Origin: Mobula hypostoma
Lineage: Eukaryota
NCBI RefSeq assembly: GCF_963921235.1
Contig: NC_086097.1
Span: forward strand, 51,710,001-51,774,000
DNA: 64,000 bases
Direction: 5' to 3'
The translations under genes and the position numbers were made by a program. Of this stretch, positions 23,569 to 64,000 are shown in pieces. Under the pieces are notes generated by a model that was not told the origin of the DNA, did no database searches, and worked only from the letters and a program-made list of their open reading frames with translations. Numbering within the stretch: the first letter of the stretch is position 1; each line of letters starts with the position of its first letter.

Positions 23569-24748
23569 GTATGTTCAACAGGACAGTAAATATAACATAG
23601 AAATACAATTGTATCAGCGTAAATTAATCAGTCTGATGGCCTGGTGGAAGAAGCTGTCCCGGAGTCTGTTGGTCCTGGCTTTTATGCTGCAGTACCATTT
23701 CCCAGATGGTAGCAGCTGGAACAGATTGTGGTTGGAGGGACTCAGATCCCCAGTTATCCGTCTGAGGTGAAAGAGGCGCTGTTGTGCTTTTTTCACCACA
23801 CAGCCAGTATGTACAGCCTGTGATGTGTAGGCCGAGGAACTTAAAGCTGTAAACCCTCTCAACCCCAGATCCATTGATGTCAATAGGGGTTAGCCTGTCT
23901 CCATTCCTCCTGTAATCCACAACCAGCTCCTTTGTTTTTGCGACATTGAGGGAGAGGTTGTTTTCTTGACACTACTGTGTCAGAGAGACGACATCTTCCC
24001 TGTAGACTGCTTTGTTATTACTTGAGGTAAGGCCAATCAATGGAGTATTGTCAGCAAATTTAATTAGCAGATTGGAGCTGTGGGTGGTTACACAGTCATG
24101 GGTATACAGAGAGTAAAAGAGGGGGCTTAGGACACAGCCCTGAGGGGCTCCTGTGTTGAGGGTTAGAGGGACAGAGGTGAGGGAGCCCCCTCTCACCACC
24201 TGCCGGTGATCTGTCAGTCCAGGATCCATATAAACAAATGGAAAATTAAATTAAACATGTAGTGCAAAAAGAGCAGAAAAAAGTACTGAGGAAATATTCA
24301 TGGTCATTGTCCATTCAGAAATTCAACGGTGGAGGGAAAACAGCCATTCCTGAAACATTGAGTGTGTGTCTCCAGGCTCCTGGACCTCCTCATTGACAGT
24401 AGCAGTGAGAAGAGGGCATGTCCTCTGTAATGGGGGTCCGTAACGATGGATGCTGCCATATTGTACCTTTTGAAGGTGCCCTGAATGCTGAGGAGGGTAG
24501 TGACCATGATGAAGCTGGCAGAATTTACAATTTTTTGCAGTTTGCAAGTGTCTTTGGTGACAAACCAATTCTCCTCAAACTCCAAATAAAATATAACCAC
24601 TGCTGTATCTTCTTTGTAATTGCATTGATATGTTGGGCCAAAGTAGTCCTCAATGAGGACTGATGTGTATTTCCTCAACTTCCCCTTACTGAAGACCACA
24701 ACTGATTCCTCAGAGTGCAAGGTGGTTGTTGCAACATCAGTCAGCCCA

Positions 24749-27700
24749 CTGATCTATCTCACTCCTGTACGCCTCGTCACCATCTGAACTGAACTATCTC
24801 ACTCCTGTACGCCTCGTCACCATCTGAACTGATCTATCTCACTCCTGTATGCCTCGTCACCATCTGAACAGATCTATCTCACTCCTGTACGCTTGGTCAC
24901 CATCTGAACTGATCTATCTCACTCCTGTACGCCTCGTCACCATCTGAACTGATCTATCTCACTCCTCTACGCCTTGTCACCAACTGAAACTATCTGTCTC
25001 ACTCCTGTACGCCTTGTCACCATCTGAACCGATCTATCTCACTCCTGGATGCCACGTCACCATCTGAACTGATCTATCTCACTCCTGTACGCCATGTCAC
25101 CATCTGAACTGATCAATCTCACTCCTGTACGCCTCGTCACCATCTGAACTGATCTATCTCACTCCTGTACGCCACGTCACCATCTGAACTGATCTGTCTC
25201 ACTCCTGTACGCCTCGTCATCATCTGAACTGATCTATCTCACTCCTGTACGACTCGTCACCATCTGAACTGATCTTCTCACTCCTGTATGCCTCCTCATC
25301 ATCTGAACTGATCTATCTCACTCCTGTACGCCTTGTCACCATCTGAACTAATCTGTCTCACTCCTGTACGCCTCGTCACCATCTGAACTGATCTATCTCA
25401 CTCCTGTACGCCTCCTCACCATCTGAACTAATCTGTCTCACTCCTGTACACCTCGTCACCATCTGAACCGATCGATCTCACTCCTTTACGCCACGTCACC
25501 ATCTGAACTAATCTGTCTCACTGCTGTACGCCTCGTCACCATCGGAAACTCTCACTCCTGTACGCCTCGTCACCATCTGAACTGATCTATCTCACTCCTG
25601 TACGCCTCGTCACGATCTGAACTGATCTATCTCACTCCTGTGCGCCTCGTCACAATCTGAACCGATCGATCTCACTCCTGTACGCCTCGTCACCATCAGA
25701 ACTGATCTATCTCACTCCTGTACACCTCGTCACCATCTGAACTGATCTGCCTCACTCCTGTACGCATCGTCACCATCTGAACTGATCTATCTCACTCCTG
25801 TACGACTCGTCACCATCTGAACCAATCGATCTCATTTCTGTACACCTCGTCACCATCTGAACCGATCGATCTCACTCCTGTACGCCTTGTCACCATCTGA
25901 ACTGATCTGTCTCACTCCTGTACGCCTTGTCACCACCTGAACTGATCAATCTCACTCCTGTACGCCTCGTCACCTTCTGAACTGATCTATCTCACTCCTG
26001 TCCGCCTCGTCACCATCTGAACTGATCGATCTCACTCCTGTACGCCTCGTCACCATCTGAACTGATCTACCTCACTCCTGCACACCTCGTCACCATCTGA
26101 ACTGATCTATCTCACTCCTGCACACCTCATCACAATCTGAACTGATCTGTCTCACTCCTGTACGCCTCGTCACCATCTGAACCGATCTGTCTCTCTGCTG
26201 TACGCCTCGTCACCATCTGAACTGATCTAACTCACTCCTGTACGCCTCGTCACCATCTGAACTGATCTATCTCACTCCTGTACGCCTCGTCACCATCTGA
26301 ACCGATCTGTCTCTCTCCTGTACGCCTTGTCACCATCTGAACTGATCTATCTCACTCCTGTACGCCTCGTCACCATCTGAACTGATCGATCTCACTCTTG
26401 TACGCCTCGTCACCTTCTGAACTGATCTATCTCACTCCTGTACTCCTCGTCACCTTCTGAACTGATCTATCTCACTCCTGTACGTCTCGTCACCATCTGA
26501 ACTGATCTGACTCACTCCTGTACGCCTCGTCACCATCTGAACTGATCTGTCTCACTCCTGTATTCCTCGTCACCATCTGAACTGATCTATCTCACTCCTG
26601 TACGCCTCGTCACCATCTGAACTGATCTGTCTCACTCCTGTACGCCTCGTCACCATCTGAACTGATCTGTCTCACTGCTGTACGCCTCGTCACCATCTGA
26701 ACTGATCTATCTCACTCCTGTACGCCTCGTCACCATCTGAACTGATCTGTTTCAGTCCTGTACGCCTCGTCACCATCTGAACTGATCTATCGCACTCCTT
26801 TACACCTCGTCGCCATCTGAAACTCTCACTCCTGTACGCCTCGTCACCATCTGAATTGATCTGTCTCACTCCTCTACGCCCTGTCACCATCTGAACTGAT
26901 CTATCTCACTCCTGTACGCCTCGTCACCATCTGAACTGTTCAACCTCACTCCTGTACGCCTCGTCACCATCTGAACTGATCTGTCTCACTACTGTACGCC
27001 TCGTCAGCATCTGAACTGATCTATCTCACTCCTGTACGCATTGTCACCATCTGAACCGATCTGTCTCACTCCTGTACGCCTCGTCACCATCTGAACCGAT
27101 CTGTCTCACTCCTGTACGCCTTGTCACCATCTGAACCGATCTGTCTCATTCCTGTACTACTCGTCACCATCTGAACTGATCTACCTCGCTCCTGTACGCC
27201 TCGTCACCATCTGAACTGATCTATCTCACTCCTGTACGCCTCGTCACCATCTGAACTAATCTGTGTCACTCCTGTACGCCTCGTCACCATCTGAACCGAT
27301 CTGTCTCACTCCTGTATGCCTCGTCACCATCTGAACTGATCTATCTCACTCCTGTACGACTCGTCACCATCTGAACCGATCTATCTCACTCTTGTACGAC
27401 GCGTCACCATCTGAACTGATCTTCTCACTCCTGTACGCCTTGTCACCATCTGAAACTCTAACTCCTGTACGCCTCCTCACCATCTGAACTGATCTATCTC
27501 ACTCCTGTACGCCTCCTCACCATCTGAACTGATCTATCTCACTGCTGTACGCCTTGTCACCATCTGAAAGTCTAACTCCTGTACGCCTCCTCACCATCTG
27601 AACTGATCTATCTCACTCCTGTACGCCTCGTCACCATCTGGAACTAATCTGTCTCACTCCTGTACGACTCGTCACCATCTGAACGGATCGATCTCACTCC

Positions 27701-63700: not shown

Positions 63701-64000
63701 CCTCGTCACCATCTGAACTGATCTATCTCACTCCTGTACGCCTCGTCACCATCTGAACTGATCTATCTCACTCCTGTACGCCTCGTCACCATCTGAACTG
63801 ATCTATCTCACTCCTGTACGCCTCGTCACCATCTGAACTGATCTATCTCACTCCTGTACGCCTCGTCACCATCTGAACTGATCTATCTCACTCCTGTACG
63901 CCTCGTCACCATCTGAACTGATCTATCTCACTCCTGTACGCCTCGTCACCATCTGAACTGATCTGTCTCACTCCTGTACGTCTCGTCACCATCTGAAACC
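24749..64000. repeat. 40-bp satellite array, ~980 monomers, consensus CTGATCT(A/G)TCTCACTCCTGTACGCCTCGTCACCATCTGAA; runs off the window end
   Basis: Head-to-tail tandem monomers in one orientation over 39.25 kb, with 39-, 34- and 29-bp variants. Confidence 0.99.

What the first reader, a model, noticed from the sequence alone, without database searches (positions are those of the whole stretch)
24660..64000. A 39-kb satellite made from 40 bp of LINE reverse-transcriptase coding sequence, still attached to its source element
Seen: the monomer's minus strand, TTCAGATGGTGACGAGGCGTACAGGAGTGAGATAGATCAG, translates as SDGDEAYRSEIDQ. At the array edge (24749) it runs without a break into WAD*CCNNHLAL and the rest of a Rex/Babar-type ORF2 and 3' UTR. 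Paralogous LINE copies in this window read SDDDKRAYRSKLYQLVEWFRNNNLAL (15725ff) and SKDDESAYREEVQRLTDWC (14745ff), the segment just after the FADD catalytic motif. The monomer is one codon shorter than these. Inference: the array arose in situ by tandem amplification of an internal LINE segment, for example by template slippage during reverse transcription or later unequal exchange. TE-derived satellites are a known phenomenon, but a birth site with the parent intact is unusually informative.
Basis: partly seen in the sequence, partly recalled or inferred. Interest (0 to 1): 0.8.

Follow-up and report, generated by a model that had tools for sequence, protein, structure and literature searches.

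The report
Ray satellite grown from LINE fragment
In a ray genome, about 990 tandem copies of a 40-base piece of a jumping gene's reverse-transcriptase code run straight on into the decayed tail of that same kind of jumping gene, so the repeat block likely grew in place there, a known way for satellite DNA to arise, with the oddity that the repeat unit looks better preserved than the element it is attached to.

Summary
Confirmed: 24749-64000+ is a 40-bp tandem array (990 copies). The minus-strand unit is the segment after the FADD motif of a batoid Rex1-like LINE, one codon short (score 51 vs 23+/-3 in shuffles; normal spacing in 77 of 80 relatives). It runs in frame into the matching downstream LINE sequence.

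Corrections: the parent is not intact. It is a decayed 3' remnant with a stop, four internal deletions and a 3' UTR split by a second LINE and an LTR element. The far end lies outside the window, so 'birth site' is not proven.

New: the tandem form is abundant in 1 of 4 species laid. The array has three layers. The unit differs from a majority of seven ray copies at 0 of 13 residues, its flank at 21 of 59 (p=0.007, post hoc); a two-way DNA comparison does not show this.

Best reading: in situ growth from an early seed (0.55; in situ overall about 0.7). Main rival: an array from a younger copy joined here by homology (0.22). Satellites from LINE ORF2 are known.

The parts
24749..64000 (-). 40-bp tandem array, about 990 units, open at the window's end; LINE sense is the minus strand
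   Evidence: TRF; decomposition
24749..24788 (-). first unit, identical to the array consensus; LINE RT segment after the FADD motif, lacking one of two tandem triplets
   Evidence: 3-base insertion in LINE contigs at 24771
24749..25901 (.). edge layer, 29 units, mostly unique variants, not block-duplicated; 3.9% non-CpG and 12.1% CpG-site divergence from consensus
   Evidence: 1 of 27 variant units in a recurring three-unit context
25902..53221 (.). middle layer, 691 units, mosaic of duplicated blocks up to 38 units (1.5 kb), no fixed higher-order period; 3.2% non-CpG divergence
   Evidence: 296 of 505 variant units in recurring contexts
53222..64000 (.). inner layer, 270 units, near-consensus (0.5% non-CpG); 58.7-60.7 kb holds error-like single indels
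24229..24748 (-). decayed 3' remnant of the same LINE subfamily: end of RT, ORF2 C-terminus (stop at about 24304), first part of 3' UTR; in-frame stop, four internal deletions, CpG observed/expected 0.13
18079..18195 (-). displaced last part of that LINE's 3' UTR with one unit of its short tail; the DNA below 18079 is where a target-site copy would lie
   Evidence: complementary alignment to the paralog's 3' UTR (positions 73-144 and 135-254)
23569..24230 (-). second, separate LINE copy (other subfamily) inserted in the remnant's 3' UTR; its 3' end continues at 18312-18196
   Evidence: RVT_1 E=0.0005
18313..23568 (+). LTR element inserted in the second LINE; 570-bp LTRs differing at 22 sites, 5-bp target duplication; gag zinc knuckle, protease and integrase pieces
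15653..16402 (+). paralogous copy of the same LINE subfamily, used for comparison (not part of the array)

Best explanation
The array is about 990 or more head-to-tail copies of a 40-base segment of a batoid LINE's reverse-transcriptase code, one codon short, joined in register to a decayed 3' remnant of that LINE family; it likely grew in place from a duplication that arose while this copy was still young. Shown: homology, register, the missing triplet, the nesting order (remnant older than the second LINE, which is older than the LTR element), three layers with one consensus, block duplications, CpG-biased changes. Inferred: (1) a 40-base duplication and a triplet slip seeded the repeat at or soon after insertion, by a backward template jump of the reverse transcriptase or by replication slippage; (2) slippage and unequal exchange kept replacing units, so the unit stayed near the family's ancestral sequence while the single-copy flank decayed; (3) block duplications of up to 1.5 kb and later near-pure expansions amplified it in this lineage; (4) it is likely methylated, non-coding heterochromatic DNA (a 40-base unit breaks the frame). 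No function is indicated.
For: In-frame junction and one DNA alignment running from the unit through the flank against the paralog 15722-16017 (E=3e-13). 3-base insertion in LINE contigs of all 4 runs; at 24811-24812 it is about 1% of depth in X1 against 75%, 43% and 92% in X5, X7, X13 (my arithmetic). Depth at 24793: 305,306 in X1 against 774, 93 and 4.6; the two listed backward (tandem) joints inside the array are in X1 only (15 of 416 joints shown). Unit 0 of 13, flank 21 of 59 residues from the seven-copy majority, Fisher p=0.007; the seven copies themselves differ at 2-6 of 13-14 there. All three layers share one consensus. Near-consensus units cluster in the middle layer (74 adjacent pairs vs 49.6 +/- 5.2, 0 of 2000 shuffles). 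Precedent: satellites ending in the parent's terminus (PMC10702118, Discussion read); repeats start more often in young elements (PMC3389668, first part of Results read).
Against: Only one edge is seen. No old, strongly diverged layer lies between flank and array: edge units are only 3.9% from consensus and the first is perfect, which fits a young array better than an old seed. Neutral concerted evolution should let the consensus drift at the mutation rate (established theory, recalled), so stasis needs an extra bias that I did not show; strictly perfect units are not clustered (28 adjacent pairs vs 27.2 expected), and the clustering test does not correct for block duplication. The two-way DNA comparison with the window paralog gives no contrast (unit 9 of 40; flank 9 of 36, 16 of 49, 24 of 98). 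The residue test is post hoc, uses 13 sites and a majority of only seven copies. No listed contig bridges the junction (32 of 144,550 pieces shown).
Confidence: 0.55

Rival explanations
1. Landing site, not birth site: the unit came from a younger copy of the family (an array born elsewhere, or a young 5' half patched onto this old copy) and was joined to this old remnant through the 40 bases of shared homology by ectopic recombination, single-strand annealing or cDNA-mediated conversion.
For: Unit 0 of 13 vs flank 21 of 59 residue differences; both CpGs kept in the unit while the flank has CpG o/e 0.13; perfect first unit and an abrupt switch to 5 of 11 changed residues just past the junction; no old edge layer; the family is very abundant in all four runs.
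Against: Forty bases at perhaps 80% identity is a poor recombination substrate when closer copies exist (inference). No contrast in the two-way DNA comparison. No look-alike stretch among earlier notes of this scan (a weak blank). The missing triplet fits a deletion-ridden copy.
Confidence: 0.22
2. Late in situ birth: the duplication arose recently in the already decayed copy, and these 40 bases simply happened to carry few substitutions.
For: In-register junction; low divergence of all layers; amplification in 1 of 4 species; two-way DNA comparison shows no contrast.
Against: Chance of 0 changes in 13 codons at per-codon rates of 0.27-0.36 is 0.017-0.003; Fisher p=0.007-0.011.
Confidence: 0.17
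3. Assembly artefact: the junction is a mis-join between a satellite contig and a LINE copy, or the array's inner structure is a polishing product.
For: No listed contig bridges the junction; error-like single indels at 58.7-60.7 kb (15 odd-length units, 9 unique) suggest thin read support there.
Against: The 29 edge units carry mostly unique variants that anchor long reads; X1 contigs match the flank with 0 differences (24141-24376, 24393-24570); tandem joints exist in X1; a mis-join landing in exact LINE register on 40 bases is unlikely (inference). The LINE origin of the unit would stand in any case.
Confidence: 0.04

Closest known systems
SINE-derived satellites (sSats) of squamate reptiles (Vassetzky, Kosushkin, Ryskov 2023, PMC10702118; abstract, passages and Discussion read)
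   Same: Tandem array of an internal retroposon segment with a longer terminal unit that continues to the parent's end; up to 1000 units; longer arrays more uniform; lineage-specific.
   Different: Parent here is a LINE coding region, not a SINE; unit 40 bp against about 125-150; far more homogeneous; only one locus seen.
Satellites related to LINE ORF2: chicken HinfI (CR1), hamster PROsat and seal Pvc 20 (LINE-1), as reviewed in PMC9659126 (passages and section 2.2 read; primary papers not read)
   Same: Satellite sequence drawn from the ORF2 of a non-LTR retrotransposon in a vertebrate.
   Different: As reviewed these are similarity matches to part of a monomer; here the whole 40-bp unit is RT code and the junction to the parent's downstream sequence is resolved to the base.
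TE-derived tandem repeats of the human genome (Ahmed and Liang 2012, PMC3389668; abstract and first part of Results read)
   Same: Local duplication inside a TE copy, more often in young elements, then in situ growth.
   Different: Those have mostly 2-3 units (about 1 Mb in 7,276 loci); this one has 990 or more.
Satellites from tandem arrays inside LTR retrotransposons of Lathyrus sativus (Vondrak et al., PMC7004042; abstract only)
   Same: Arrays that expanded inside a retroelement, seen with their flanks.
   Different: There the family itself carries short arrays; here the family carries a single unit with one more codon.
Rex1/Babar non-LTR retrotransposons (PMC4635592, PMC6274825, PMC13343379; passages read)
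   Same: RT-coding LINE with a 3' UTR and a 5-6-nt tail unit; close teleost relatives at about 60% identity; rays are among the richest in Rex1.
   Different: No endonuclease part or 5' end in the window; no tree with named Rex1 references was built.

Membership tests
Satellite DNA | long head-to-tail array of a short unit | tested here: met
   990 units over 39.2 kb, open-ended
Satellite DNA | homogenisation and block duplication among units | tested here: met
   one consensus in three layers, 0.5-3.9% non-CpG divergence, duplicated blocks up to 38 units
Satellite DNA | lineage-specific abundance | tested here: met
   depth at 24793 relative to 24747: 91 in X1, 0.04, 0.04 and 0.01 in X5, X7, X13 (arithmetic); 4 of 23 listed runs laid; contig depth is not a copy number
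TE-derived satellite | unit homologous to a TE segment beyond chance | tested here: met
   score 51 vs 23.4 +/- 3.0, 0 of 300 shuffles; 13 of 13 residues equal the seven-copy majority
TE-derived satellite at its birth site | downstream part of the parent continues in register at one edge | tested here: met
TE-derived satellite at its birth site | upstream part of the same copy at the other edge, inside one target-site duplication | not testable with these tools
   array runs off the window; no genome held
TE-derived satellite at its birth site | unit shares the host copy's level of decay | tested here: inconclusive
   residue test says no (0/13 vs 21/59); two-way DNA test shows no contrast
Rex1/Babar LINE (parent) | RT domain of a non-LTR element | tested here: met
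   P0001 RVT_1 E=1e-10 plus PF09004; remnant aligns to P0001 108-215 in three pieces
Rex1/Babar LINE (parent) | 3' UTR followed by a 5-7-nt tandem oligonucleotide (PMC4635592 passage) | tested here: inconclusive
   paralog ends in two 6-nt units; the remnant's displaced end keeps about one unit
Rex1/Babar LINE (parent) | RT groups with named Rex1/Babar elements in a tree | not tested
   no named Rex1 reference among the hits shown; the label rests on recalled motifs and on the papers' statements
Rex1/Babar LINE (parent) | AP endonuclease, no ORF1 | not testable with these tools
   5' part not in the window
Centromeric satellite | CENP-A chromatin, position at the primary constriction | not testable with these tools
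   no chromatin or map data; a recalled CENP-B-box pattern has 0 matches, which says little outside mammals; no stable fold of four units (z=+1.0)

The most novel reading that the evidence does not exclude
A molecular time capsule: a satellite seeded during or just after one LINE insertion has held the ancestral 40-base sequence (minus one triplet) unchanged while its own single-copy parent next door lost about a third of its residues. With both LINE halves as a built-in clock, the locus would directly measure whether concerted evolution holds a satellite consensus below the neutral rate, and earlier unchecked notes suggest this ray genome holds several such element-born arrays for replication.
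Probability: 0.3. Interest if true: 0.68.

Novelty: new member of a known kind. Interest (0 to 1): 0.44.

Why it matters
Satellites rarely keep a readable record of their origin. Here the source segment, the missing triplet, one junction and the order of neighbouring insertions can be read to the base, and the array has visible layers. If the far end holds the 5' half, the locus gives an internal clock for the open question of why some satellite consensus sequences stay 'frozen'. If it does not, it shows an array being moved onto another copy of its parent family through 40 bases of homology. My searches found no paper on a Rex-Babar-derived satellite monomer (0 papers; 8 listed, titles and abstract starts seen, passages of one read) or on ray satellites (listings only), but the library is partial and the general phenomenon is well described.

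Tried and rejected
No genome was held, so the far end could not be read. A 25-base piece of the unit had no exact match in genome, viral or metagenome contigs, and P0001 found no confirmed loci in viral or genome contigs, so no nucleotide consensus of the LINE subfamily could be made. Shares of 0.21-0.33 for organisms B-I are not evidence of an orthologous locus: laying showed mostly paralogous LINE contigs with 10-17% other letters. The 2 contigs of X5 at 24793 could be LINE copies laid on the second unit, so I do not count them as a small array in organism B. Summed contig depth was rejected as a copy number (tool's warning; overlap of contigs; a cap on abundance values is recalled, not checked). 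A fixed higher-order repeat was rejected: best offsets of 65, 86, 117 and 308 units each match only 26-28 of 276-393 pairs. No Rfam match in 1-27000. No hairpin stronger than shuffles. Pfam found no family for the 15.65-kb paralog piece or the two remnant pieces (0 of 3). No unit with the triplet restored among 8 over-length units. The manta and devil ray genome preprint (10.64898/2026.10.27.761883; passages) gives only bulk repeat classes; its supplements are closed and might list satellites. Earlier scan notes held no look-alike stretch.
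Full report
Observation. Tandem Repeats Finder gives one array from 24748 to 63997, period 40, 990 copies, 91% matches. A wrap-around alignment split it into 991 units (the last a 2-base stub): 898 of length 40, 296 identical to the consensus, 209 variant types. The consensus equals the first unit, 24749-24788. On the minus strand it translates as SDGDEAYRSEIDQ and continues in frame into WAD*CCNNHLAL.

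Source of the unit. The 15.65-kb paralog found one longer relative among 23 candidates, P0001 of the sawfish Pristis pectinata (66%, E=6e-27), an RVT_1 plus PF09004 protein. The unit matches P0001 at 12 of 13 residues with a one-residue gap. Its best peptide score against P0001 is 51; 300 shuffles give 23.4 +/- 3.0, maximum 33. Of 151 proteins then held, 80 matched a motif pattern around this segment: 77 have the normal spacing, 3 differ, none is as short as the unit. In public contigs of all four runs laid, LINE copies carry three extra bases at 24771, where the unit has one copy of a triplet, so a slippage loss is inferred. The closest relatives are from rays (Pristis, Mobula, Hypanus, Leucoraja), then teleosts at about 60%. 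The host is thus a batoid by best hits; earlier unchecked notes call it a manta ray. The Rex1/Babar label is plausible (rays are rich in Rex1, PMC13343379 passages; 5-7-nt tails, PMC4635592 passage, against 5-6-nt tail units here), but I built no tree with named references.

The attached element. One DNA alignment runs from the unit through the flank against the paralog 15722-16017 (65%, E=3e-13), so the junction is in exact LINE register. The element is not intact. It aligns to P0001 108-133, 139-159, 183-215 and from 244 on, so about 5, 23 and 28 codons are missing, 2 more in the C-terminal part against P0190, and there is an in-frame stop. CpG observed/expected is 0.13. Its 3' UTR is in two complementary pieces: positions 73-144 of the paralog's 3' region end at about 24229 and positions 135-254 lie at 18195-18079. 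Between them sit a second LINE copy (24230-23569 plus 18312-18196) and, inside that, an LTR element with a 5-bp target duplication and LTRs differing at 22 of 570 sites. The order remnant, second LINE, LTR element follows from the nesting. The 5' part and the far end of the array are outside the window and no genome was held.

Array structure. Three layers share one consensus. The 29 edge units are 3.9% from it at non-CpG sites (leaving out the common A/G site) and 12.1% at CpG sites; 1 of 27 variant units there lies in a recurring three-unit context. The 691 middle units (3.2%, 8.4%) are a mosaic of duplicated blocks up to 38 units; 296 of 505 variant units lie in recurring contexts; no offset gives a fixed higher-order period. 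The 270 inner units are 0.5% from consensus; 58.7-60.7 kb holds 15 odd-length units, 9 unique, which look like read errors, so this layer needs read support. The CpG excess suggests germline methylation (inference). Consensus and the common variant cluster together (74 adjacent pairs vs 49.6 +/- 5.2, 0 of 2000 shuffles), but strictly perfect units alone do not (28 vs 27.2), and block duplication was not corrected for.

Other species. Of 23 listed runs I laid 4, from four organisms, on 23500-24830. At 24793, in the second unit, summed depth is 305,306 in X1 and 774, 93 and 4.6 in X5, X7, X13; relative to the LINE flank at 24747 that is 91 against 0.04, 0.04 and 0.01. At 24811-24812 the 3-base insertion makes up about 1% of depth in X1 and 75%, 43% and 92% in the others. 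So the tandem, triplet-short form is abundant in organism A only. X1 may be the assembled sample and is not independent. No listed piece bridges the junction (32 pieces shown), no orthologous locus could be seen in the other species, and depth is no copy number.

An age oddity. Against a majority of seven batoid copies (six proteins and the window paralog; P0190 was aligned but left out of the majority as a different subfamily; tied columns dropped), the unit differs at 0 of 13 residues and the attached flank at 21 of 59 (Fisher one-sided p=0.007; 18 of 55, p=0.011, without four residues beside a deletion). The seven copies differ from leave-one-out majorities at 2-6 of 13-14 residues in the same segment, so it is not immune to change. 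The unit keeps two CpGs. Against this, a two-way DNA comparison with the one window paralog shows no contrast: 9 of 40 for the unit, 9 of 36, 16 of 49 and 24 of 98 for the flank; that paralog is unusually changed in this segment (6 of 14 residues). The test is post hoc and small, and only 40 of 138 difference rows were shown, none within the first unit.

How it most likely works. I favour in situ growth from an early seed (0.55): a 40-base duplication with a triplet slip at or soon after insertion, continual replacement of units by slippage and unequal exchange, then block duplications and near-pure expansion in this lineage. Homology, register, nesting and layering are shown; the seeding step, its timing and the stasis are inferred. 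Weak points are the absence of an old edge layer and the neutral expectation (recalled theory) that a consensus drifts. A late in situ birth with lucky conservation gets 0.17; joining of a younger-derived array to this old copy through the shared 40 bases gets 0.22; a mis-join 0.04. Nothing points to a centromere role: no recalled CENP-B-box pattern, no stable fold, no chromatin data.

Comparison with what is known. Satellites from LINE ORF2 are reviewed in PMC9659126 (HinfI from CR1, PROsat and Pvc 20 from LINE-1; passages and section 2.2 read). Reptile SINE-derived satellites typically end in a longer unit that continues to the parent's terminus and reach 1000 units (PMC10702118, Discussion read). 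Human TE-derived tandem repeats start more often in young elements and grow locally (PMC3389668, first part of Results read). Lathyrus satellites expanded inside LTR elements (PMC7004042, abstract only). I found no paper on a Rex-Babar-derived monomer (0 papers) or on ray satellites (listings only); the library is partial. Unchecked notes of this scan report a SINE-born and a Penelope-born array with both halves flanking in the same genome; they raise my prior for in situ growth and lower the rarity, but I did not test them.

Verdict. A real, well-resolved new member of a known kind. Interest 0.44: the junction and layers are clear and the better-preserved unit is an unexplained, testable oddity, but the decisive far end was not seen.

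Noticed in passing
window 18313-23568 (+): 5.3-kb LTR element with 570-bp LTRs (22 differences), 5-bp target duplication, a 424-aa frame with a zinc knuckle, a 392-aa frame with protease and integrase zinc-binding domains and a weak integrase C-terminal hit; no RT hit in the four frames scanned, so probably a deleted, non-autonomous element.
   Followed up: partly
window 14513-16402 (+): The two '+' strand paralogs appear nested: a 5'-truncated LINE of another subfamily (about 14730-15655) splits one copy whose halves are 14513-14729 and 15653-16402, both aligning to consecutive parts of P0001. With the insertion in the edge element's 3' UTR, that is two LINE-into-LINE insertions in 10 kb.
   Followed up: partly
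window 24749-64000, unit position 8: One A/G variant stays at 21%, 31% and 25% in the three layers while other variants vanish from the inner layer.
   Followed up: no
window 25548 and 35 other units: Recurring 34-bp and 29-bp short units (36 and 7 of 991) spread with the duplicated blocks.
   Followed up: no
window 58749-60749: Cluster of 15 odd-length units, 9 unique, with small insertions that look like sequencing errors; possible thin read support.
   Followed up: partly
proteins P0025, P0030, P0002: Public gene models of rays and other fish include pieces of this LINE family fused to host exons (a 'testis development-related' model; Sushi and Ig-domain models), likely annotation chimeras.
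   Followed up: no
window 13289-13734 and 17528-17971, 6965-7424: Further dispersed repeat copies, 68-83% alike, probably CR1-type LINE 3' ends (family name recalled).
   Followed up: no
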